Both the position numbers and the translations under genes were made by a program. The notes beneath the pieces are model-generated. The model ran no database searches. It was not told where the DNA came from and worked only from the letters and a program-made list of their open reading frames with translations. DNA of 64,000 nucleotides from a virus (taxonomy: Duplodnaviria > Caudoviricetes), in the IMG/VR virus record IMGVR_UViG_3300026549_000034, positions 1-64,000 of that record. The stretch is one strand, 5' to 3'. Shown piece after piece: positions 1,302 through 59,752 of the stretch. Each line of letters starts with the position of its first letter. Positions within the stretch are counted from its first letter, which is position 1.

Positions 1302-1457
1302 ATGAAGTGTAGATCAAAGTTTAATCATGATCAAATATATAACTATGAAATAATAACATCTGAAAAGGTAAAAATATTTAAAGACGATTTTAAAATATAT
1401 ATTAGTCAAAAAATGTTTAATGATATATTTGAACCAGTGATTGATTTTGAAGAATAA
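1302..1457 (+). CDS. small hypothetical protein (51 aa)
   Basis: Manual ORF MKCRSKFNHD...IDFEE filling the gap. Confidence 0.5.
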   Translation: MKCRSKFNHDQIYNYEIITSEKVKIFKDDFKIYISQKMFNDIFEPVIDFEE

Positions 1458-1467
1458 TTAAATATTA

Positions 1468-1497
1468 TTTGAATTTTTTAATAATAGATTCTATATT
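1468..1497 (+). promoter_or_regulatory. putative phage promoter, now separated from its gene by the IS
   Basis: TTTGAAT-N16-CTATATT directly abutting the IS end. Confidence 0.55.
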
Positions 1498-1503
1498 TGT
1501 GAA

Positions 1504-2787
1504 CTAACACAATGCTAAAGACATTGTATCTTCCTGCTTAGTAAGTTTGCTTACAAATTTGTTATAAGAAAGCTTTACAGGCCCTTTTATACTTGTTTGA
1601 TTAGTTCCTAACCTATCAAGTTTATTATATTGAAGGTAGAAATATATCATGTTATTAGCAGCATGAATATCTCTATCTTCTTTTTGTCTGCAGTTTGGAC
1701 ATTCAAATATTCTGTCTTTCAGTTCTAATTCTACTTTAGTACCACAATTAGAGCAATATTTAGTTGTTGGGAACCATTTGTCTAACACATTGACTTTATC
1801 TGAGTACATGAGCTTAGATTTTATTCTTCCAAGCACAGAGTGTTGTACTTTAGATCCAGACAACCCATCTTGTCTCCATTCACTTATCTGTTCATCTTGT
1901 ATGACTATTATTTTGTTGTCACTTAGAATTGAATGTACTATCTTATTTGATATGTCATTCTTCTTGTTGTTTATATGGATATACTCTTTTCTAATTTGCT
2001 TAATAGTCTTATACCTGTTGTTTGAGCCTTTTGTCTGTCTTGCAAGCTTAGCTTGAAGTCTCTTAAGTTTCTCACTTTCTCCAACAGATATGTCATATTT
2101 AGTTCCATTAGAAAGAATCAAAGTAGTAGACACCCCCATATCAATGCCTACTATGTCATTTTTGTATTGTTTGTCTATATTGTCTTTGTCTATAAAACAA
2201 GTCAATGAAATATAATAGTCATTTCCATCATAAAGAAGATTTGCTGTTGTAAATTCTATGTTTTTGTCTTTGAATTTATCTAATTGATTTAATCCATTCA
2301 CAATAATAGGTTTCTTGATTCCCTGAAGTTTAATCTTATTCTTGCTTCTTATATCATGTGTTACACCATACTGTTTGAACTTAAGTGAATTTACTTCAGA
2401 CTTGAATTTAAGTTTACCTACATTTAGTCCAGATTTTTTTAGTTGAGCTAATCCTTTTATCTGATCTTGTATTTGCTTAATTAGTTGTTGCCTTGTAGAT
2501 GCTGATATATAGTGTAGTGTTGTATCTATATCTAATCCATTCTTGTCTTTTCTTGTAATTACTTTCAAGTCTTTGTCTGTAATAGAATATGCACTATCAG
2601 TTGATATAATATAATTATAAATCCACTTTGCTTCAACTAAAAGCATTTTAAGTCCTTCTTTTTGACTACAATTTAATCTTGATTTATCAACTTTAAACTT
2701 AAATGTCTTGCATATCTGACTATTACGTTTAAGCAATGTTAAACGCATTGTCTCAGCTATTTGCTTGTTCTTTTTTGTGTTTGACAT
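1504..2787 (-). CDS. tnpB: TnpB RNA-guided nuclease-family protein
   Basis: GIDMG (RuvC-I), CSNCG...CPNC zinc ribbon, DRDIHAANN (RuvC-III); RuvC-II reads IQDEQ. Confidence 0.92.
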   Translation of the reverse strand: MSNTKKNKQIAETMRLTLLKRNSQICKTFKFKVDKSRLNCSQKEGLKMLLVEAKWIYNYIISTDSAYSITDKDLKVITRKDKNGLDIDTTLHYISASTRQQLIKQIQDQIKGLAQLKKSGLNVGKLKFKSEVNSLKFKQYGVTHDIRSKNKIKLQGIKKPIIVNGLNQLDKFKDKNIEFTTANLLYDGNDYYISLTCFIDKDNIDKQYKNDIVGIDMGVSTTLILSNGTKYDISVGESEKLKRLQAKLARQTKGSNNRYKTIKQIRKEYIHINNKKNDISNKIVHSILSDNKIIVIQDEQISEWRQDGLSGSKVQHSVLGRIKSKLMYSDKVNVLDKWFPTTKYCSNCGTKVELELKDRIFECPNCRQKEDRDIHAANNMIYFYLQYNKLDRLGTNQTSIKGPVKLSYNKFVSKLTKQEDTMSLALC

Positions 2788-2816
2788 TTAAATTTAAATT
2801 AATATTTATCTATATT
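2787..2816 (+). promoter_or_regulatory. outward-facing phage-type promoter inside the IS left end
   Basis: TTTAAAT-N16-CTATATT pointing to the RNA ligase gene. Confidence 0.5.
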
Positions 2817-2955
2817 TAATAATAATATTTTTACATTAAAAAGTAAAAAAAAAAAAACAAGAAAAATAAATAGAAGTCAATTCACACACAATACTAAAGA
2901 TATTGTATCTATCTTGACTTAATTTTTGTATATATAATTTTAAAAAATAAATAAA

Positions 2956-3780
2956 ATGGGAAAGCAAAAACGTAGCGAGAACACTTATCAGAAGATTAAT
3001 ACTATCTTCATGAGAGATGCTAAGAATGTAATTATGCCTTATGAGCCTTTTGTAAAGCCAGAGTTTGAGTATCTTCGTGGTCTTAAGTGGCGTGGAGAGG
3101 AGAAAGTGGATGGAACTTCTATGCGTATTGAGGTCACTAAAACACCAATTTGGGATGGCGGTACTGTTGGTGGAACATTAAATGGTGTAGAATTTAAGGT
3201 TCGTATCGCCGGTAAGACTGATAATGCACAGATTCCTAAGAACTTGTTGAAGCATATGCAAGAGAAATATCCCAATGAAAAGGTATATACAGCTCTTGGT
3301 CTTAAGGAGTTTATTCCTGTAGAAGAATGGGAAGATCATAAGTGGAATTCTTATGAAGATATCCCCAATATCTATACTATCTATGGGGAAGGCTATGGTG
3401 AAGGAATTCAGTCTGGTGGGTGGTATATCAAAGGTGGAAATGAGTTTATTGTATTTGATGTAAAGGTTAATAATCTTTATCTTAAGACAGAAGCTCGTGA
3501 TGATATTGCTACTAAGCTTGGTGCTCCTATTGTTCCTCTTAAGGGTTACTTTACTCTTGACGAAGCAATTGATTATGTTCGTAAGGGATTCCGTTCAGAG
3601 GTTGCTGAAAATCCTGAAGCAAAGATGGCTGAAGGTCTTGTTCTTCGTACTGATCTTGGTCTTTGTGATAGAATGGGAGAACGTTTGATTGTTAAAATTA
3701 AATATGAGGACTTCCAGAAATATAGAGCAGTATATGGAACTGATGATAAGGTTGAACAGCAAAGAAATGATCATTATTAA
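2956..3780 (+). CDS. ATP-dependent RNA ligase (Rnl2-like nucleotidyltransferase)
   Basis: Motifs EKVDG, YGEGYG, FIVFDV, EGLV, KIK. Confidence 0.85.
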   Translation: MGKQKRSENTYQKINTIFMRDAKNVIMPYEPFVKPEFEYLRGLKWRGEEKVDGTSMRIEVTKTPIWDGGTVGGTLNGVEFKVRIAGKTDNAQIPKNLLKHMQEKYPNEKVYTALGLKEFIPVEEWEDHKWNSYEDIPNIYTIYGEGYGEGIQSGGWYIKGGNEFIVFDVKVNNLYLKTEARDDIATKLGAPIVPLKGYFTLDEAIDYVRKGFRSEVAENPEAKMAEGLVLRTDLGLCDRMGERLIVKIKYEDFQKYRAVYGTDDKVEQQRNDHY

Positions 3781-22473: not shown

Positions 22474-22979
22474 AGCTACTTATTTCATATATACAAGAAA
22501 AACTAAATAAAGGAAGTATTTCAAACTTTGACAAAGAAAAAAATATAAAGGACAAAGAAATACAATTATTTAAGAATTATTATTTTGGATTGTCAAATGA
22601 TGATGCAGATTTAATATTGAATAAATATGTATATGGATGGCCTCTTCCTCAAAATACATTAAATAAAACAACATGTACTGCATTTGAATTATTGTTTATG
22701 CTTGCTGCTATGTTAGTGGATGATGGCAATGACTACTTGCAAGTTTATAAATTAGGATTCACATCATACAAAAAGATTGGAGAAAATAACCCTTATGACT
22801 ATAGTTGGTTTGAAGAAGAAGTTGATGGTAAAGATATGCTTACTATATGTCAGGAATGGATAGCTGATAATGAAAAGGAATTTAGAAACATATATAATTT
22901 ATGCAAAAAATATGATAATGACCTAACTATAGAAAAAATTGAAAGTTTTTATGAGGAAGTATTTGATGCAGAAAATTAA
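22470..22979 (+). CDS. hypothetical protein with capsid-targeting-like N-terminus
   Basis: MKLLISYIQEKL. Confidence 0.7.
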   Translation: MKLLISYIQEKLNKGSISNFDKEKNIKDKEIQLFKNYYFGLSNDDADLILNKYVYGWPLPQNTLNKTTCTAFELLFMLAAMLVDDGNDYLQVYKLGFTSYKKIGENNPYDYSWFEEEVDGKDMLTICQEWIADNEKEFRNIYNLCKKYDNDLTIEKIESFYEEVFDAEN

Positions 22980-23007
22980 AAAAAAATTATGAAAAAATAC
23001 ATTTATT

Positions 23008-23037
23008 TTTAAAATAATTGATATTTTTAACTATAAT
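23008..23037 (+). promoter_or_regulatory. putative promoter of the leader/tRNA island
   Basis: TTTAAAA-N16-CTATAAT. Confidence 0.5.
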
Positions 23038-23085
23038 ATATTATTATTAATTATAAAATAAGTAAAAATTAAACTTCAGAAATAT

Positions 23086-23217
23086 ATGAATAACATTAGT
23101 CTACATAGTATTAGTTTGAATTCATCCCTCTTTAGAGGTATTGAATCATGTGGTAGTATGTTTGAATGTGGACGACCAAGTGAACATATGAAAATTTCTG
23201 GAGATATGGAAGGATAA
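23086..23217 (+). CDS. putative attenuator leader peptide (43 aa, Ser-rich)
   Basis: MNNISLHSISLNSSLFRGIESCGSMFECGRPSEHMKISGDMEG; its 3' end is complementary to the downstream terminator arm. Confidence 0.55.
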   Translation: MNNISLHSISLNSSLFRGIESCGSMFECGRPSEHMKISGDMEG

Positions 23218-23257
23218 AAGTAATATACATATTGAAGTATAAAACATATTAGAATAT

Positions 23258-23296
23258 AAATCTCCAGAACCTTGAAAAAGATTTTGGAGATTTTTT
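23258..23296 (+). terminator. intrinsic terminator (attenuator candidate)
   Basis: AAATCTCCAGAA / TTTTGGAGATTT stem with CTT-GAAA-AAG cap and U tract. Confidence 0.75.
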
Positions 23297-23341
23297 GATT
23301 TATAATAAAAAGGAAGAAAAAATTAAAAAAGTTTGAAAATA

Positions 23342-23371
23342 TTTAAATTTACTTGAAAAATAAACTATATT
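23342..23371 (+). promoter_or_regulatory. putative promoter directly upstream of the first tRNA
   Basis: TTTAAAT-N16-CTATATT. Confidence 0.55.
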
Positions 23372-23455
23372 TAATTATCAAAGTTAATTAAAAAACTGAG
23401 ATTAAATTATCAAAACAAAAAAATAAAGAAGAGTTCTTTGAATACTTTTAATAAT

Positions 23456-23531
23456 GCGGGGTTCGTCTAGAGGCCCAGGACTCGAGATTTTCATTCTCGC
23501 AACATGGATTCGAATTCCATACCCCGTACCA
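23456..23531 (+). tRNA. tRNA-Glu(TTC)
   Basis: Full cloverleaf, loop TTTTCAT, encoded CCA. Confidence 0.93.
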
Positions 23532-23642
23532 TTGTTAAATATTTGGCAGAGTTAGGCCTATTGCACTGCTCCCTACGAGTTAGGTAAAGTGGTATTTACA
23601 GTGGTAATTAATCAAGGGTTCAAATCCCTTAATATTTAACAA
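23532..23642 (+). ncRNA. tRNA-like RNA with 12 bp terminal stem and branched anticodon region
   Basis: Ser-type D arm, AAGGG-TTCAAAT-CCCTT T arm, no normal anticodon arm. Confidence 0.55.
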
Positions 23643-23836
23643 ACGATCTTTGACATATTGATACAATAATACATAAAAAAATATATAAATTACCTGTACT
23701 GGTCAACGATTCTAAGGTACAGAGGGGTACAGGTCATAAGTCATAAACTCTCAGAACGCTGTTGAAACATAACAGATGCGTCAAGTGCCAGCTACTGAGC
23801 AGTCGTAACGGGTTTATGAGATTTATTTTCAAATAT

Positions 23837-24062
23837 AAGTTTCCGAGGGCTGGAAGGAATTCCAATATTGAACCTCCAATGGGCATACTGAATTGACAGT
23901 TGAAAGACCTTGTAGTGGCAAACATGTGATTGAGGTCAGTGCGATACGTAAAGCAACGTAATGGAGACTGTGAAAGAGAAAAGCAGTGAGAATCTGCACT
24001 TTAGTAGAATCCCTTTAGTGGATTGAAGGAGTTAATTGCTCTATGACAGATGTAGGAAACTT
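23837..24062 (+). ncRNA. unknown structured RNA (about 225 nt)
   Basis: Closing stem AAGTTTCC/GGAAACTT, several internal hairpins, GC higher than flanks. Confidence 0.5.
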
Positions 24063-24157
24063 TTAAAATATTATACAGTCACTGGTTGTCGAGAAGACAA
24101 TTAGAATCAGATATCCCTCATAGATGTGTAGATGAACTGTTGAGGAGGGTAAAACAT

Positions 24158-24268
24158 AAGATGCTATGGTTGACCTGCATGACGAAAGGGCGGGTCCGAG
24201 GGTTCGAATCCCTCTCCTGAGGTATCTCGGGATGGCAGAGTGGTTGAATGCATGACCTAAGGTATCTT
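24158..24268 (+). ncRNA. circularly permuted tRNA mimic (YrlA-like topology)
   Basis: Order: variable arm, T arm, acceptor stem closed by GTAT loop, D arm; ends pair as extended anticodon-side stem. Confidence 0.75.
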
Positions 24269-24276
24269 TATTTTTT

Positions 24277-24365
24277 GGAGGTTTGGCAGAGTTGGTCGAT
24301 TGCACCGGTCTTGAAAATCGGCGGGCGTTCATAGCGTCCCGGGGGTTCGAATCCCTCAGCCTCCG
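24277..24365 (+). tRNA. tRNA-Ser(TGA)
   Basis: Class II cloverleaf, loop CTTGAAA, G73. Confidence 0.95.
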
Positions 24366-24370
24366 CATAT

Positions 24371-24448
24371 AAATTCATTGTTGTAGAATAGAGTTACTTC
24401 AATAATAGGGTTTTTATTTAATACTTTATTCGCTAGTTACATGAATTT
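24371..24448 (+). ncRNA. Y RNA-like module, minimal form
   Basis: AAATTCAT/ATGAATTT stem, TGTTGTA/GCTAGTTAC internal loop, GAATAGAGT/ACTTTATTC stem, TACTTC. Confidence 0.65.
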
Positions 24449-24455
24449 TTAATTT

Positions 24456-24540
24456 GGGCAGTTGGATGAGCGATTTAGTCGGCAGTCTGCAAAACTGTTA
24501 GTGGTGAGAACCCAGGCCGGTTTGACTCCGGCACTGCCCT
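24456..24540 (+). tRNA. tRNA-Cys(GCA) with long variable arm
   Basis: Loop CTGCAAA, U73, 17 nt variable region. Confidence 0.85.
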
Positions 24541-24561
24541 CAAAAAAATAAATAATAAATT

Positions 24562-25074
24562 ATGATATTACAATTAAAAGAATATTTAGCAGAAAAATTA
24601 ATAGATACACATATATTTGAAATGGCAAAATCTATTAGTGAATTTGAAGATCTTGTAGAAAATATGATTGATCCAATATTATGTCATATTATTTTAATTT
24701 TAAAAGCTAAAGAAGAAAATTCAACAGAATTTGTTATACATTGGAAAAAAGAAGTCATAGGATTTTTTAAAAAATTTACAAATATTAAATTAAAAACTAA
24801 AAATTCATATGAATCAAAACTAAAACATATAAAATCTATATTATTTGATGAGTTAAATTTAGATAACATGGATAATTTAGATAATATTAAGAAAATTATA
24901 TATATCAAAATGTATCAAGAAGGATATGATTTAAATGATAAAAAAATATGGGATGATTTTAAATCTATTATAGAAGATATTCAAATCAATCATTTAGATA
25001 TAATAATTGATTTAATGGCTTCAAATGATCAATATAAAATCGTTAATTATATAGAAAATTTATATAAAACATAA
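24562..25074 (+). CDS. hypothetical protein (DUF29-like HW..E motif) with capsid-targeting-like N-terminus
   Basis: LKEYLAEKL; HII...HWKKE. Confidence 0.6.
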   Translation: MILQLKEYLAEKLIDTHIFEMAKSISEFEDLVENMIDPILCHIILILKAKEENSTEFVIHWKKEVIGFFKKFTNIKLKTKNSYESKLKHIKSILFDELNLDNMDNLDNIKKIIYIKMYQEGYDLNDKKIWDDFKSIIEDIQINHLDIIIDLMASNDQYKIVNYIENLYKT

Positions 25075-25156
25075 TGAGTGTAGTTTCAACAAGGACTTTT
25101 CTACAAGAACGTTCATTACAAAGTCGTTGTGACAAATAGGGAGAGACCTGTACATT

Positions 25157-25236
25157 GGGTCACGTAGCTGAGAAGGTTTAGCGCTGGATTGAAGCTCCAG
25201 GTCATTTGTACGGCAGTTCGATTCTGCCCGGACCCA
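25157..25236 (+). tRNA. tRNA-Phe(GAA), atypical
   Basis: Loop TTGAAGC; bulged A in acceptor stem; 11 nt variable region. Confidence 0.75.
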
Positions 25237-25529
25237 CTATTGCATTTTTTGAATACTGTTTATGCAAGTCAAATAAGAGAACAGTATATAAGATATACAA
25301 AATATATCTAAAACGCTCAAACATCATAGAGGAGGTCGTAATTCTTTAGGTGGGCTATTGATACTATGGTGAAACTCTGTAGAAATTTAAAATTTAAATC
25401 TGCGCATCTTTTATTAAATTTCTACATATCTTAAGAGTTATCTTGTTACTTGAGGCGCCAAGGAAGGAACCCCGCTTACGAGGAATTAGGGGAAATATTA
25501 AGGACAAGGATTAGGAAAAGATTTTTTAA

Positions 25530-25607
25530 CTGGGTGTATGCCGGTAATTGGTTTAACCGTCCACATTTGGAATGTGGTTTATGCAGGTTCGAATCCTGTC
25601 ACCCAGA
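25530..25607 (+). tRNA. tRNA-Pro(TGG)
   Basis: Loop TTTGGAA, canonical T arm; extended acceptor-D linker. Confidence 0.85.
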
Positions 25608-25609
25608 CT

Positions 25610-25749
25610 AAAGGCAAACGTATTTAAGTGTACATAAAATACGTGTTTGAAAAGAAATGTCAGAATTCGCGGTTCTGAATATAGGTTCGAATCCTTCTTA
25701 ACGGTAGCCAAACGTTTAGTTTATTGGTTAAAACATTTCAAACGCCTTT
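25610..25749 (+). ncRNA. second circularly permuted tRNA mimic
   Basis: T arm AGG-TTCGAAT-CCT precedes closed stem AACG..CGTT and D arm GTTT-ATTGGTTA-AAAC; outer stems GTTTGAAA/TTTCAAAC and AAAGGC/GCCTTT. Confidence 0.65.
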
Positions 25750-25758
25750 TTATTCAAT

Positions 25759-25829
25759 GGGGATGTAGATCAATAGTAAATCATAACACTTTCAATGTTA
25801 AGTCTCCGGAGCGTAACCGGACTTCCCTA
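25759..25829 (+). tRNA. tRNA-Glu(TTC)-like with non-canonical D and T loops
   Basis: Loop CTTTCAA; T loop AGCGTAA; D loop lacks GG. Confidence 0.6.
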
Positions 25830-25831
25830 CT

Positions 25832-26017
25832 AAAAACTATTCATCCTGGTGGCTGGCTGACAGCAAATAGGAGGCATTAGAAGAGCGGGTTCATTCCGGA
25901 AAATTTTATACCACGCTTTCTTGCCGGAAATTTGGAATCAAGTGCGCATACAAGAACAAGTTTCCCATAGGCTTTAACCTGAACAGAATTGGGTGAGATG
26001 GTAATTGAATAGTTTTT
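25832..26017 (+). ncRNA. unknown structured RNA
   Basis: 12 bp perfect closing stem AAAAACTATTCA/TGAATAGTTTTT. Confidence 0.45.
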
Positions 26018-26023
26018 TATTAT

Positions 26024-26097
26024 TGGGCTGTAGCTCAGTTGGTTAGAGCGCTACACTGATAATGTAGAGGTCCTGAGTTCAAATCTCAGCAGCCCAA
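26024..26097 (+). tRNA. tRNA-Ile(GAT)
   Basis: Canonical cloverleaf, loop CTGATAA. Confidence 0.95.
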
Positions 26098-26101
26098 CTT
26101 A

Positions 26102-26298
26102 GAAGTCTAGCTTAAAAGATCTGTGGGAATATTTTAATAATTAAGTCAAGAAGGACGTCGCTTGAAACTGATTTTTAAGATTAGTACCAAGAGAAGATGA
26201 AAGTATGGAACTTAGCTAACTCCAGAAATTAATTCTTAATAATCAGACATAGAGTGCCAGCACGAGGCTGGTGGATTCCGTGAAAGTCGGAGACTTCG
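26102..26298 (+). ncRNA. tRNA-shelled RNA with large insert in place of the anticodon loop
   Basis: GAAGTC/GACTTC acceptor-like stem, TCCG-TGAAAGT-CGGA T-like arm, GCCAGC/GCTGGT arm, TCTGTG/CATAGA stem. Confidence 0.45.
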
Positions 26299-26652: not shown

Positions 26653-26725
26653 GCAGTATTGGTGTTAGTGATTAGCATAGGACACTTCCAATGTTCAGGG
26701 GACAGTTTGAATCTGTTATACTGCT
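26653..26725 (+). tRNA. tRNA-Gly(TCC)
   Basis: Loop CTTCCAA, U73. Confidence 0.88.
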
Positions 26726-27042: not shown

Positions 27043-27111
27043 AAGTACTTAGCTCAATGTTAGAGCCTTGGATTTTACCAAGAGATTCAGGTTTAATTCC
27101 TGAGGTACTTT
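27043..27111 (+). tRNA. tRNA-like gene with 6 nt anticodon loop (identity undetermined)
   Basis: CTTGG-ATTTTA-CCAAG; paralog at 29898. Confidence 0.6.
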
Positions 27112-29897: not shown

Positions 29898-29966
29898 ACC
29901 TCTTTAGCTCAATGTTAGAGCCTTGGATTTTACCGAGAGATATAGGTTCGATTCCTATGAGAGGTA
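29898..29966 (+). tRNA. tRNA-like gene with 6 nt anticodon loop (identity undetermined)
   Basis: CTTGG-ATTTTA-CCGAG; D arm identical to the 27043 copy. Confidence 0.6.
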
Positions 29967-29967
29967 C

Positions 29968-58297: not shown

Positions 58298-59752
58298 ATG
58301 AGTAAACTTAATTCCACACGTAAGTCTTCTACATTGAAGACAAATCAAATAACTGTTGGTGAAATTGCTGGTCAGATAACAGATACTGCAGCAGCTCAGT
58401 CAAATATCGCTCTTCTTCGTAGAGCAGTTCTTGCAAATCTTCTTTGGGAGAATATTGCATACATGGATGGTGAGTCTGTCACAAATGAGATAAAGAGATT
58501 GATTTCTCTTTGTGATCCTCAAGATGTTGCAAATCTAACTATTGAAGCTCGTACTATGCAAAAGCTTCGTCATACTCCTCTTTTCCTTGCAGTAGAAATG
58601 TGTAAGCATGAAGCAACACGTCCTTATGTAAAGGATATACTTCCAAAGATTATCACACGTGCAGATATGCTTACTGACTTCATGGCTCTTTACTGGGCTG
58701 ACGGTAAGTGTCCTATTTGTAATGCAGCAAAGAAGGGTCTTGCTGAAGCATTCCATAACTTCAATGAGTACAAGTTTGCTAAGTATGACCGTAATGCAGA
58801 AATCAAGCTTCGCGACGTAATGTTCATGGTTCGTCCAAAGCCAGAAACTCCTCTTGAGGTTGAACTTTACAAGAAGATTGCTGATCGTACTCTTGAAACT
58901 CCTGAGACATGGGAGGTGCTTCTTTCACTTGCTCACACTAATGAAGAAAAGGCAGCCGTTTGGACAAAGCTTATTACTGAAGGTAAGCTTGGTGGTAAGG
59001 CTATGCTTATGAACATCCGTAATATGCAAAATGCAGGTGTTCCTCGTCCAATCATTGTACAAGGTCTTCAAGAACTTAAGGGAGCTATGCTTCTTCCACT
59101 TGATTTCTTGAAAGCTATGCGTGAAAGTAATGGCTTTGATAGAGAGATTGAAGATGCAATGCTTAAGACATATGAGAATATGCCTAAGCTTCCAGGTAAG
59201 ACTCTATTTATTGTGGATGTATCTGGATCTATGGGATCACTTACAAGCAGTGGTTCAACATTTACTAGACTTGACCAAGCATGTTCGATGGCAATGTTGG
59301 CAGCTAACCAATGTACTGACTTTGAACTTGTATGTACTGCCGGTTCTGATGGAGAGCTTCGTGAAGAGCAAATGAGAATTCTGTATCCTCCTAAGGGATT
59401 TAATCTCTTCAAAGAAATTGAAGCCTCCCGTAAAACTGTAGGAGGTGGTGGTATCTTCACATACCAGTGTCTTGAAAAGCTTCGTAAGGAGCTTGGTGAT
59501 AAGATACATGATTATGACAGAATCATTGTATTCAGTGATTCGCAGGATATAGATGTATCAAGTTGGCGTTCACCTAACCATGATAAGAAGCCACGTCCAT
59601 TTGGTAAGTACAATTATATCTGTGATATATCTGCTCATACTCGTGGTATTGCTTACAATGGTGTTTGGACAGCTGAAATTTCGGGTTGGTCAGAACACTT
59701 CCTTACATATATTGCAGCATATGAAGGAATTGAAAATACATTTGATGAATAA
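58298..59752 (+). CDS. Ro60/TROVE-domain RNA-binding protein (Rsr-like) with vWA domain
   Basis: LR..P, ITRAD, F.EY..AKY, LRDV.F..RPKP, TWE..LS, DVSGSM MIDAS, FSD.Q, SGWSE. Confidence 0.93.
   Translation: MSKLNSTRKSSTLKTNQITVGEIAGQITDTAAAQSNIALLRRAVLANLLWENIAYMDGESVTNEIKRLISLCDPQDVANLTIEARTMQKLRHTPLFLAVEMCKHEATRPYVKDILPKIITRADMLTDFMALYWADGKCPICNAAKKGLAEAFHNFNEYKFAKYDRNAEIKLRDVMFMVRPKPETPLEVELYKKIADRTLETPETWEVLLSLAHTNEEKAAVWTKLITEGKLGGKAMLMNIRNMQNAGVPRPIIVQGLQELKGAMLLPLDFLKAMRESNGFDREIEDAMLKTYENMPKLPGKTLFIVDVSGSMGSLTSSGSTFTRLDQACSMAMLAANQCTDFELVCTAGSDGELREEQMRILYPPKGFNLFKEIEASRKTVGGGGIFTYQCLEKLRKELGDKIHDYDRIIVFSDSQDIDVSSWRSPNHDKKPRPFGKYNYICDISAHTRGIAYNGVWTAEISGWSEHFLTYIAAYEGIENTFDE

What the first reader, a model, noticed from the sequence alone, without database searches (positions are those of the whole stretch)
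23086..23296. Attenuator-like leader in front of the tRNA/Y RNA island
Seen: a promoter motif (23008), a 43-codon ORF with 9 Ser codons (5 in the first 14), then an intrinsic terminator. TTCTGGAGAT (23196-23205), near the end of the ORF, is the exact complement of the terminator 5' arm ATCTCCAGAA (23260-23269), so the two pairings are mutually exclusive. Established: this is the layout of ribosome-mediated attenuators. Inference: when host tRNAs are cleaved or uncharged the ribosome stalls early, the antiterminator forms, and the phage raises tRNA transcription, giving a translation-stress sensor for counter-defence. Caveat: another promoter motif (23342) lies downstream of the terminator, so this may be a booster and not the sole switch.
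Basis: partly seen in the sequence, partly recalled or inferred. Interest (0 to 1): 0.82.

Follow-up and report, generated by a model that had tools for sequence, protein, structure and literature searches.

The report
Leader-peptide attenuator before phage tRNA genes
A rumen phage and at least seven related lineages place a tiny, probably translated gene wired to a switchable transcription stop just ahead of their tRNA gene island, so ribosome speed on that mini-gene probably helps decide how much transcription runs on into the tRNA genes.

Summary
ORF 23086-23217 (43 codons, 9 Ser), the terminator (23259-23296) and the 10-nt complement (23196-23205 against 23260-23269) are as described. Among 52 terminator-like hairpins in this 193-kb genome, no other has an upstream complement longer than 7 nt.

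A fourth element (CTTCAGAAAT, 23074-23083, just 5' of the ATG) also pairs with 23194-23203, completing a 1-2-3-4 layout.

Eight divergent lineages from rumen metagenomes keep the module: ORF, elements 2-4, terminator, a promoter-like motif, then tRNA-Glu. Upstream neighbours and the spacer sequence change. Element 1 is in seven of the eight. Fourteen peptide variants (37-43 aa, in-frame indels, invariant SSL) argue for translation. In every lineage the fold prefers 2:3 before element 4 exists and the terminator afterwards.

The peptide is rich in the amino acids whose tRNAs the island encodes, placing it in the top 0.3% of random 42-codon windows.

Not supported:
- A Ser-specific stall, because the Ser codons do not overlap element 1.
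- A link to counter-defence.
- The leader as sole switch, because a conserved promoter-like motif follows the terminator.
- Compensatory covariation in 2:3.

I found no publication of such control for phage tRNA genes. Unchecked notes from this scan report similar leaders in other phages.

The parts
23029..23059 (+). Candidate promoter P1 for the leader: AACTATAAT at 23029-23037 and TATAAAAT at 23052-23059. Inferred only.
   Evidence: It resembles the AACTATATT motif that recurs at 12 intergenic sites. Relatives carry TATATTAA-like elements 25-45 nt upstream of element 1. A metatranscriptome contig starts at 23068, which is a weak hint. Sigma-70 pattern matches here are at chance density.
23074..23088 (+). 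Element 1: CTTCAGAAAT plus ATATG, which includes the start codon. It pairs with 23185-23203 and would act as an anti-antiterminator.
   Evidence: The pairing appears in the MFE fold. CTTCAGAA is invariant in 7 of 8 lineages. In L028 a different start-codon-proximal sequence pairs with the 5' side of element 2.
23086..23217 (+). Leader ORF, 43 codons, MNNISLHSISLNSSLFRGIESCGSMFECGRPSEHMKISGDMEG.
   Evidence: ORF listing. It is called as a gene in public assemblies, in a cluster of 5 variants. A family of 14 variants of 37-43 aa has in-frame indels. The start context (A/T-rich, T at -1, no SD) is typical of this phage's genes.
23107..23130 (+). Ser/Leu-rich core of the peptide (codons 8-15, SISLNSSL). 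SSL is invariant in the family. TCC and CTC are the rarest codons of their sets.
   Evidence: Family alignment. RSCU is 0.15 for TCC and 0.07 for CTC. L024 encodes the same SSL with different codons, AGT TCA TTA.
23196..23205 (+). Element 2: TTCTGGAGAT, covering codons 37 (third base) to 40 (SGD). It is the antiterminator 5' strand, and 23194-23203 also pairs with element 1.
   Evidence: Exact complement of 23260-23269. All cells are paired across 10 sequences. Only 1 of 10 columns varies among five lineages, against 44 of 107 elsewhere in the ORF. The one change, C to T in L016, turns Ser into Phe but keeps a G:U pair.
23218..23258 (+). Variable spacer between the stop codon and the terminator.
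   Evidence: At least five unrelated sequence versions, 27-43 nt long, while the flanks stay invariant.
23259..23296 (+). Intrinsic terminator: element 3 (ATCTCCAGAA, 23260-23269), upper stem with GAAA loop (23271-23280), element 4 (TTTTGGAGAT, 23282-23291) and T run (23291-23296).
   Evidence: Folds. Compensatory changes in the upper stem in L018. The upper stem is built differently again in L024 and L025, while the lower stem is invariant.
23353..23371 (+). Conserved promoter-like element P2: TTGAAA-N4-AACTATATT.
   Evidence: Present 45-75 nt after the terminator in all 8 lineages. AACTATATT occurs at 12 intergenic sites in the genome. Its function as a promoter is inferred.
23456..23531 (+). 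tRNA-Glu(UUC), the first gene of the tRNA/ncRNA island and the invariant downstream partner of the leader module.
   Evidence: ARAGORN and Rfam. tRNA-Glu(UUC) follows the leader in every relative long enough to show it.

Best explanation
This is a translation-coupled (leader-peptide type) transcription attenuator at the entry to the phage's tRNA/ncRNA island.

Proposed mechanism:
1. A transcript starting about 20 nt upstream of the ATG carries a 43-codon ORF.
2. Its last codons (SGD) form RNA element 2. Element 2 can pair with element 1 next to the start codon, or with element 3, the 5' arm of the terminator.
3. If ribosomes run the ORF quickly to its stop, 10-12 nt past element 2, they cover or unwind element 2. 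Elements 3 and 4 then fold and transcription ends at 23296.
4. If nothing translates the leader, 1:2 forms and the terminator also forms.
5. If ribosomes are loaded but slow, element 1 is masked by initiating or queued ribosomes while element 2 is still free. Then 2:3 forms first and RNA polymerase reads on towards tRNA-Glu and the island.

The peptide is built mainly from amino acids whose tRNAs the island encodes, so the likely signal is decoding capacity for those codons. That would make it a feedback gauge of tRNA supply. The island has its own conserved promoter-like element, so the switch probably adds to island transcription and does not control it alone.

Shown by sequence and comparison: the elements, their conservation and the alternative folds. 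Strongly suggested: translation of the ORF. Inferred: where the ribosome stalls, the ribosome queue that would mask element 1, what the element senses, and conditional readthrough itself.
For: 1. The 10-nt complement is unique among the 52 terminator-like hairpins of the genome; the others reach at most 7 nt.
2. Eight lineages keep the ORF, elements 2-4, the terminator, P2 and tRNA-Glu; element 1 is in seven of them. These are the window group, L012, L016, L018, L019, L024, L025 and L028. Meanwhile the upstream neighbour changes (a 169-aa gene only 45% identical, a giant gene on the other strand, or tRNA-Met) and the spacer is replaced.
3. In all 8 lineages the transcript truncated before element 4 prefers the 2:3 fold by 4.5-11.6 kcal/mol. 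The full transcript prefers 1:2 plus the terminator by 6-13 kcal/mol. Duplex energies rank 2:3 (-15 to -18) above 3:4 (-13.5 to -14) above 1:2 (-10 to -13.5).
4. The terminator's upper stem changes by compensation, yet elements 2, 3 and 4 stay nearly invariant. The only changes keep both alternative pairings through G:U or G:C. That is expected if each strand has two partners.
5. In L016 element 2 changed Ser to Phe but kept pairing. In L018 element 3 keeps AA although those bases no longer pair within the terminator.
6. Translation: 14 peptide variants, indels only in multiples of three, invariant M1, H7, S13, S14, L15, E20, G29 and P31, a stop always 2-3 codons after element 2, and a start context typical for this SD-less phage.
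7. Composition: 27 of 42 codons are readable by island tRNAs, against 15.7 +/- 3.7 in random 42-codon windows of phage genes. That is the top 0.3%, or 0.6% when GC-matched. All lineages score 22-30. Enriched residues are C, S, H, G, M, R, P and E. A, T, W, Y, V, D and N have no island tRNA and are depleted or absent.
8. A rumen metatranscriptome with strongly uneven coverage of the island holds a contig, 23068-23728, that starts 6 nt before element 1 and bridges the terminator.
Against: - There are no double compensatory changes in 1:2 or 2:3. The support is conservation, not covariation.
- Element 1 lies 5' of the ORF, not under the candidate stall codons. Modelled single ribosomes at codon 5 or at codons 13-14 still allow 1:2 plus the terminator. 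Readthrough therefore needs ribosome queuing or frequent initiation, which is my inference.
- A conserved promoter-like element (23353-23371) lies between the terminator and tRNA-Glu, so the island need not depend on readthrough.
- The conserved peptide blocks (EGRP, SGDMEV) could reflect a functional micro-protein. dN/dS is 0.3-1.4 and uninformative.
- The codon-match test was post hoc and used the window's tRNA set for all lineages.
- The RNA data are assembled contigs. They cannot show 3' ends at 23296 or any conditional readthrough.
Confidence: 0.55

Rival explanations
1. It is an ordinary small gene with its own terminator. The 43-aa peptide is a functional micro-protein. The hairpin ends this small transcription unit and insulates the island promoter P2 from upstream transcription. 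The complement in the last codons would be a by-product, for example a relic duplication of the terminator's 3' arm kept because SGD is needed in the peptide.
For: The peptide has conserved blocks (SSL, EGRP, SGDMEV) across 14 variants. A conserved promoter-like element follows the terminator. There is no compensatory covariation in 2:3. One RNA contig (X18, 23091-23237) covers only the ORF.
Against: The 10-nt complement is an outlier among 52 terminators. The S-to-F change in element 2 breaks SGD but keeps pairing. The lower terminator stem is invariant while the upper stem covaries. The module is always linked to the downstream tRNA-Glu, never to a fixed upstream gene. A composition mirroring the island tRNA set is odd for an ordinary protein. 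No Pfam or PHROG family matches.
Confidence: 0.2
2. It is a ribosome-independent RNA switch. The 130-nt region closed by helix 1:2 would be an aptamer-like domain binding a small molecule, a protein or a tRNA. A bound state keeps 1:2 so the terminator forms. An unbound state lets 2:3 form. The ORF would be incidental or secondary.
For: The layout (closing helix whose 3' strand overlaps an antiterminator) is that of transcriptional OFF riboswitches. Several blocks are invariant at synonymous sites, for example CGACCAAGTGAA. dN/dS is near 1 in close lineages.
Against: There is no Rfam family even at E<=10. The interior of the predicted rod shows no covariation, and the changes seen break predicted pairs. 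The frame stays open in all 14 variants, with only in-frame indels. SSL is kept with different codons in L024. The leader's motifs are permuted in L028.
Confidence: 0.1
3. This is the first reader's specific version: a serine-codon stall sensor for counter-defence. Cleavage or uncharging of host tRNA-Ser would stall the ribosome early, the antiterminator would form, and phage tRNA output would rise to overcome an anti-phage tRNase.
For: Ser is enriched 3-fold in every family member, at 6-9 residues. The SSL core is invariant. The island encodes two tRNA-Ser(UGA) genes.
Against: The Ser codons are a mix of AGT, TCA, TCC, TCG and TCT, read by at least two isoacceptors. Ser at codons 5, 8 and 10 is not conserved. 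A ribosome at the Ser cluster does not cover element 1. Cys, His, Gly, Arg and Met are enriched as much as Ser. Nothing found here points to a tRNase.
Confidence: 0.07
4. It is an arrest-peptide variant. The conserved nascent chain (for example EGRPSE or SSL) would itself stall the ribosome, perhaps in response to a ligand, and the position of that stall would set the RNA fold, as with TnaC or SpeFL.
For: The peptide blocks are more conserved than in classical leader peptides. Conserved residues sit 8-30 codons before the stop.
Against: No known arrest motif was recognised, which rests on my own knowledge and was not tested. The motifs ERPS and EGCGM occur in swapped order in L028. A stall at codons 29-33 would cover element 2 and favour termination.
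Confidence: 0.08

Closest known systems
Leader-peptide (ribosome-mediated) transcription attenuators of amino-acid operons (E. coli trpL, hisL, pheL, leuL, thrL, ilv leaders)
   Same: A short ORF in the leader. Four RNA segments allow 1:2, 2:3 and 3:4 pairings. An intrinsic terminator precedes the regulated genes. The stop codon is placed so that a terminating ribosome interferes with segment 2. The peptide is enriched in residues related to the regulated product.
   Different: It sits in a phage and ahead of tRNA/ncRNA genes, not biosynthetic enzymes. Segment 1 lies 5' of the start codon and not under the regulatory codons. There is no long run of a single codon; it has SSL plus a broad bias. 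The ORF is longer, at 39-43 codons. A promoter-like element lies between the terminator and the target.
Mycobacterial whiB7 uORF attenuator (PMC10274678)
   Same: A uORF whose translation stalling is proposed to give antitermination. Its sequence varies between species but keeps a compositional bias (alanine there; Ser and the island-tRNA amino acids here). It responds in principle to many translation insults.
   Different: The host, the regulated gene (a transcription factor) and the bias all differ. whiB7 has experimental support and this element has none.
Leader-peptide attenuators ahead of phage tRNA genes noted earlier in this scan (unchecked AI notes e1-5656894, e1-4038497, e1-5653917, e1-5340910 and others)
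   Same: A tiny ORF plus a switchable terminator at the head of a phage tRNA island. One case is also a rumen jumbo phage with codon-matched leaders.
   Different: There is no sequence similarity to this window. Several of those leaders are described as using all 20 amino acids, whereas this one uses 14-16 and lacks Ala and nearly lacks Thr, Trp and Tyr. Those notes are not independent evidence.
T-box leaders and transcriptional OFF riboswitches
   Same: A terminator/antiterminator choice in a 5' leader. A closing helix whose 3' strand overlaps the antiterminator. A conceptual link to tRNA status.
   Different: No match to the T-box or any riboswitch model in Rfam. No conserved specifier or T-box sequence. 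The spacer that would be the antiterminator loop is not conserved. The ORF is conserved.

Membership tests
Leader-peptide transcription attenuator | Short translated ORF within the 5' leader | tested here: met
   A 39-43-codon ORF is kept open in 14 variants, with in-frame indels only and a start context typical for this phage. Translation itself was not observed directly.
Leader-peptide transcription attenuator | Intrinsic terminator between the leader ORF and the regulated genes | tested here: met
   Hairpin of about -15 kcal/mol plus T6 at 23259-23296. It is conserved in 8 lineages, with compensatory changes in the upper stem.
Leader-peptide transcription attenuator | Antiterminator helix mutually exclusive with the terminator | tested here: met
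   A 10-11-bp 2:3 pairing in 8 of 8 lineages, an outlier against 52 genomic terminators, and favoured by 4.5-11.6 kcal/mol before element 4 is made. No compensatory double changes are available.
Leader-peptide transcription attenuator | Stop codon placed so that a terminating ribosome blocks segment 2 | tested here: met
   The stop lies 2-3 codons (6-9 nt) after element 2 in all lineages with DNA in hand, including those with a replaced spacer.
Leader-peptide transcription attenuator | Regulatory codons overlap segment 1, so a stalled ribosome frees segment 2 | tested here: not met
   Element 1 (23074-23083) lies 5' of the ATG. Masking a ribosome footprint at codon 5 or at codons 13-14 still gives 1:2 plus the terminator. 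The scheme works only with queued or initiating ribosomes, which is inferred. In L028 a UUCAGAA copy lies inside the ORF at codons 13-15.
Leader-peptide transcription attenuator | Leader codons cognate to the regulated product | tested here: met
   27 of 42 codons are readable by island tRNAs, in the top 0.3% of random windows. Amino acids without an island tRNA are depleted or absent. The test was post hoc.
Leader-peptide transcription attenuator | Regulated genes depend on readthrough (no promoter after the terminator) | tested here: inconclusive
   A conserved TTTGAAA-N4-5-AACTATATT element lies after the terminator in all lineages. Whether it is a promoter is unknown.
Leader-peptide transcription attenuator | Readthrough changes with translation or aminoacyl-tRNA supply | not testable with these tools
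   Only assembled RNA contigs were available. One bridges the terminator.
T-box riboswitch | Match to the T-box model (Stem I specifier loop, conserved T-box sequence in the antiterminator) | tested here: not met
   No T-box hit in Rfam at the gathering score or at E<=10 over 22900-24300. The antiterminator loop sequence is not conserved.
Known riboswitch classes | Match to an Rfam aptamer model, with covarying helices | tested here: not met
   No Rfam hit. There is no covariation in the interior of the 1:2 domain.

The most novel reading that the evidence does not exclude
The leader is a self-referential gauge of tRNA supply. It is a test ORF written mostly in the amino acids or codons served by the island's own tRNAs, so slow decoding of any of them raises transcription into the island, and restored decoding shuts it again. 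Together with the unrelated leaders noted elsewhere in this scan, this would mean that leader-peptide attenuation of tRNA genes is a widespread, repeatedly invented and so far undescribed control principle in large phages.
Probability: 0.35. Interest if true: 0.8.

Novelty: new variant of a known kind. Interest (0 to 1): 0.66.

Why it matters
Phage tRNA genes are usually discussed as codon-usage helpers or as replacements for tRNAs lost to host defences. How their expression is controlled is largely unknown. A leader ORF that reports decoding capacity and feeds back on transcription of the tRNA/ncRNA island would give phages a homeostatic control of translation resources. It would extend the classical attenuation mechanism to RNA genes and to viruses of SD-less hosts that look like Bacteroidota. 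It would also offer a compact natural translation-speed sensor. The family found here is a ready set of natural variants for reporter tests: eight DNA lineages and 14 peptides.

Tried and rejected
- Rfam at gathering score and at E<=10 gave nothing but tRNAs and noise.
- GenBank phages by blastn gave no match for the region. By tblastn the best relative of a replication gene is only 29% identical.
- IMG/VR and GTDB genome scans with ORF-core and terminator patterns were empty. A looser three-element pattern then found one 410-kb contig.
- Pfam and PHROGs gave nothing credible for the peptide.
- CTTCAGAAAT as a shared regulatory word: it recurs in four promoters at 182-185 kb. There it lies on the other strand, in the spacer of TTTG-N20-TATATTTG promoters, and the count is compatible with chance. 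I dropped it.
- Constant distance between elements 2 and 3: it looked conserved at 61-64 nt, but L019 has 50. Dropped.
- The rod-like interior structure of the ORF region has no covariation and substitutions break pairs. I do not claim it.
- The order E-S-C-..-F in the peptide against the island order Glu, Ser, Cys, Phe is broken in L019 and L028, so I treat it as coincidence.
- 'Uses all 20 amino acids', as in other scan notes, is not true here: 14-16 are used.
- Enforced-pair folding gave inconsistent energies and is not used. One search replaces it.
- RNA runs are contigs only. Parts without cover, and a 505-nt 'skip' joint with a 21-nt side, were not interpreted.
- Papers: three full-text searches found no description of attenuators before phage tRNA genes.

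Full report
**What is there.** The window is the first 64 kb of a 193,181-bp contig with 26.7% G+C. It carries T4-like replication and recombination genes and a Ro60-like gene. From 23456 onward it has a roughly 8-kb island of tRNA and tRNA-like genes.

- ORF 23086-23217 has 43 codons and 9 Ser.
- TTCTGGAGAT at 23196-23205 is the reverse complement of ATCTCCAGAA at 23260-23269.
- ATCTCCAGAA is the 5' arm of a hairpin closed by TTTTGGAGAT (23282-23291) and followed by a T run to 23296.

Folding adds a fourth element. CTTCAGAAAT(ATATG) at 23074-23088, directly 5' of and including the start codon, pairs with 23185-23203. The locus therefore has the full 1:2, 2:3 and 3:4 scheme.

**Is it more than chance?** I scanned the whole genome for stable hairpins that end at a T run and found 52. 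For each, I measured the longest perfect complement of the 5' arm in the 115 nt upstream. The other 51 give 0-7 nt and this one gives 10 nt. Ser enrichment has P of about 0.0009 against the phage proteome. The sigma-70-type promoter matches are at background density, 85 found against 76 expected.

**Relatives.** The 43-aa ORF is called as a gene in public assemblies.

Close strains (L001-L011) are 97-99% identical in the flanks. In these:
- The sequence from upstream of the ORF to ...GGAGATAT is almost invariant.
- The terminator is also almost invariant.
- In L009 and L010 the spacer between them is replaced, with the ORF ending two or three codons later in a new sequence.

More distant lineages came from three routes: homologues of the upstream 169-aa gene, peptide profile searches, and a three-element DNA pattern. 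They are L012-14, L016/17, L018, L019, L024, L025-27 and L028/29.

All keep the following:
- An ORF of 39-43 codons.
- TT[C/T]TGGAGAT two or three codons before its stop.
- A 27-43-nt unconserved spacer.
- ATCTCCAGA[A/G].
- A terminator.
- An element TTTGAAA-N4-5-AACTATATT.
- The motif GTTCTTTGAA.
- tRNA-Glu(UUC).

What lies upstream differs between lineages. It is the 169-aa gene (only 45% identical in L012), a 1483-aa gene on the opposite strand (L024), or tRNA-Met (L028). The module therefore travels with the start of the island, not with an upstream operon.

**RNA pairings.**
- On ten distinct sequences the 2:3 helix is paired in 100% of cells. Eight pairs are invariant and two change on one side only, G:C to G:U and A:U to G:U.
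- The terminator's upper stem shows true compensatory changes in L018. It is built differently again in L024 (TT:AA) and L025 (CC:GG).
- The lower stem and element 2 do not change. This is what one expects if each strand must satisfy two partners, but it is conservation, not covariation.
- Two small observations point the same way. In L016 element 2 mutated C to T, turning the otherwise constant Ser of 'SGD' into Phe while keeping a G:U pair. In L018 the two A's of element 3 no longer pair within the terminator but are retained, and they still pair with element 2.
- Thermodynamically, in all eight lineages the transcript that ends just before element 4 prefers a fold with 2:3 by 4.5-11.6 kcal/mol. 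The complete transcript prefers 1:2 plus the terminator by 6-13 kcal/mol.
- The predicted rod inside the ORF is not supported. There is no covariation, and substitutions break its pairs.

**Is the ORF translated?**
- Pairwise dN/dS among the closer lineages is 0.3-1.4, with substitutions spread evenly over codon positions. The sequence as a whole is therefore not under strong protein-level constraint.
- The profile search, however, revealed a family of 14 peptides of 37-43 residues. It has at least five indel positions, all in frame. M1, H7, S13, S14, L15, E20, G29 and P31 are invariant, and the C-terminus is conserved as SGD(M/I)E(V).
- L024 encodes the invariant SSL with different codons (AGT TCA TTA against TCA TCC CTC), which argues for selection at the level of decoding or peptide.
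- None of about 190 long ORFs of this phage has a GGAG-type Shine-Dalgarno. Upstream regions are A/T-rich with T at -1, exactly as at this ORF.
- I conclude that translation is very likely, though not observed.

- Ser is 3-fold enriched in every member, but so are Cys, His, Gly, Met and Arg. Ala is absent, and Thr, Trp, Tyr, Lys, Asp, Val and Asn are depleted.
- After adding tRNA-Pro(UGG), a second tRNA-Glu and tRNA-Gly(UCC), which default ARAGORN missed, the island encodes tRNAs for Glu, Ser, Cys, Phe, Pro, Ile, Gly, Lys(AAG), Arg(CGN), His, Leu and Gln. It has none for Ala, Thr, Val, Trp, Tyr, Asp or Asn.
- Of the 42 codons after the start, 27 can be read by island tRNAs. Random 42-codon windows of phage genes give 15.7 +/- 3.7, and only 0.3% reach 27, or 0.6% when matched for G+C. 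The other lineages score 22-30.
- An earlier unchecked note of this scan prompted this test, so it is post hoc. G+C content does not explain the result: Ala is G+C-rich yet absent, and Thr, Val and Asp have the same G+C as Ser, Cys, His and Glu.
- The invariant Arg uses CGA (RSCU 0.52, read by the island's tRNA-Arg(ACG)) and not the dominant AGA. TCC and CTC at codons 14-15 are the rarest codons of their sets.

**Mechanism and its weak point.** The stop codon lies 9 nt after element 2, so a ribosome that finishes the ORF covers or has just unwound element 2, and the terminator can form. Without translation, 1:2 forms and the terminator forms as well.

Readthrough needs element 2 free and element 1 unavailable. 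Element 1 lies 5' of the ATG, so a single ribosome paused at codon 5 or at codons 13-14 does not cover it. The constrained folds still give 1:2 plus the terminator.

The scheme works if slow ribosomes cause queuing back to the start codon, given a disome spacing of about 10 codons, or if frequent initiation keeps element 1 covered. This step is inference.

**Expression.** Rumen metatranscriptomes hold the locus. In run X2 the island's structured RNAs reach contig depths of 1400-3000, against 5-30 for neighbouring ORFs, so the signal is RNA and not contaminating DNA. One contig (23068-23728, depth 31.5, no mismatches) begins 6 nt before element 1 and crosses the terminator into tRNA-Glu. In X18 a contig covers only 23091-23237. 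Contigs cannot show ends or local depth, so this is only a weak hint of a start near 23068 and of some readthrough.

**The second promoter.** The element after the terminator (23353-23371) is conserved in all lineages. AACTATATT recurs at 12 intergenic sites of the genome. The phage also has four canonical Bacteroidota-type promoters (TTTG-N20-TATATTTG) at 182-185 kb. If 23353-23371 is a promoter, the leader can only add to, or time, island transcription.

**Comparison and novelty.** The element works like a leader-peptide attenuator and meets most defining features. It fails the classical overlap of regulatory codons with segment 1. It is not a T-box or a known riboswitch. The whiB7 uORF, whose sequence varies but keeps a compositional bias and which responds to many translation insults, is the nearest functional analogue (PMC10274678). 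Three full-text searches found no description of such control ahead of phage tRNA genes.

Earlier notes of this scan describe leader-peptide attenuators at the heads of tRNA islands in unrelated phages. They share no sequence with this one and are not independent evidence. I tested the idea of codon matching here and found it supported. The idea of an all-20-amino-acid leader does not apply here.

**Verdict.** I put about 0.55 on a translation-coupled attenuator. The remainder is split between an ordinary small gene with its own terminator, a ribosome-independent RNA switch, an arrest-peptide variant and the Ser-specific version.

Noticed in passing
genome C1 about 182.2, 183.5, 184.6 and 185.1 kb (outside the window), + strand: Four near-identical canonical Bacteroidota-type promoters (TTTG-N20-TATATTTG) lie ahead of + strand genes. 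Together with the total absence of Shine-Dalgarno motifs, this points to a Bacteroidota host. Their spacer contains ATTTCTGAAG, the reverse complement of leader element 1, probably by chance.
   Followed up: partly
window 840, 23363, 33769, 47960 and eight further intergenic sites of the genome: The motif AACTATATT(A/T)A recurs in intergenic regions and is a candidate phage-specific promoter. One copy at genome position 168982 is followed by the same GTTCTTTGAAA motif that precedes tRNA-Glu.
   Followed up: partly
window 25532-25605, 25759-25829, 26653-26725: Three tRNA genes seen by Rfam but missed by default ARAGORN. By fold, their anticodon loops read UGG (Pro), UUC (Glu) and UCC (Gly).
   Followed up: partly
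window 27043-27111 and 29898-29967: Two tRNA-like genes share an identical D arm and an anticodon stem closed by a six-base loop AUUUUA, so no normal anticodon can be assigned.
   Followed up: no
window 23778-24045 and 24314-24447: In a rumen metatranscriptome (run X2), contigs over these unassigned structured RNAs of the island have depths of about 770-1400 and about 3050, against 5-30 for neighbouring ORFs. They are by far the most abundant RNAs of the region.
   Followed up: no
window 23423-23432, 23643-23660 and equivalent places in L016, L019, L024, L025 and L028: A short motif (GTTCTTTGAA, or GATCTTTGACATATTG) recurs 10-25 nt upstream of tRNA and ncRNA genes of the island in all lineages. 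It may be a processing or promoter signal.
   Followed up: no
L028:862-981 (= L029, contig ONIZ01000001.1, 410,106 bp): In the most divergent lineage the leader sits after tRNA-Met. The peptide motifs ERPS and EGCGM(W/F) appear in swapped order. CTTCAGAA is missing 5' of the ATG, and a UUCAGAA copy lies inside the ORF at codons 13-15. The contig is labelled 'uncultured Firmicutes bacterium RUG343' but is also an IMG/VR viral genome, so the label is probably a binning artefact.
   Followed up: partly
window 23456-26200 compared with L001-L005, L016, L024 and L025: The content and order of the tRNA/ncRNA island is mosaic between strains that are 97-99% identical in the flanking genes. Identity drops to 20-60% in blocks, and different tRNAs follow tRNA-Glu.
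   Followed up: no
window 1504-2787 (-) and 58298-59752 (+): A transposase-like ORF (phrog_506, E 3e-47) and a Ro60-like RNA-binding protein (phrog_850, E 3e-27).
   Followed up: no
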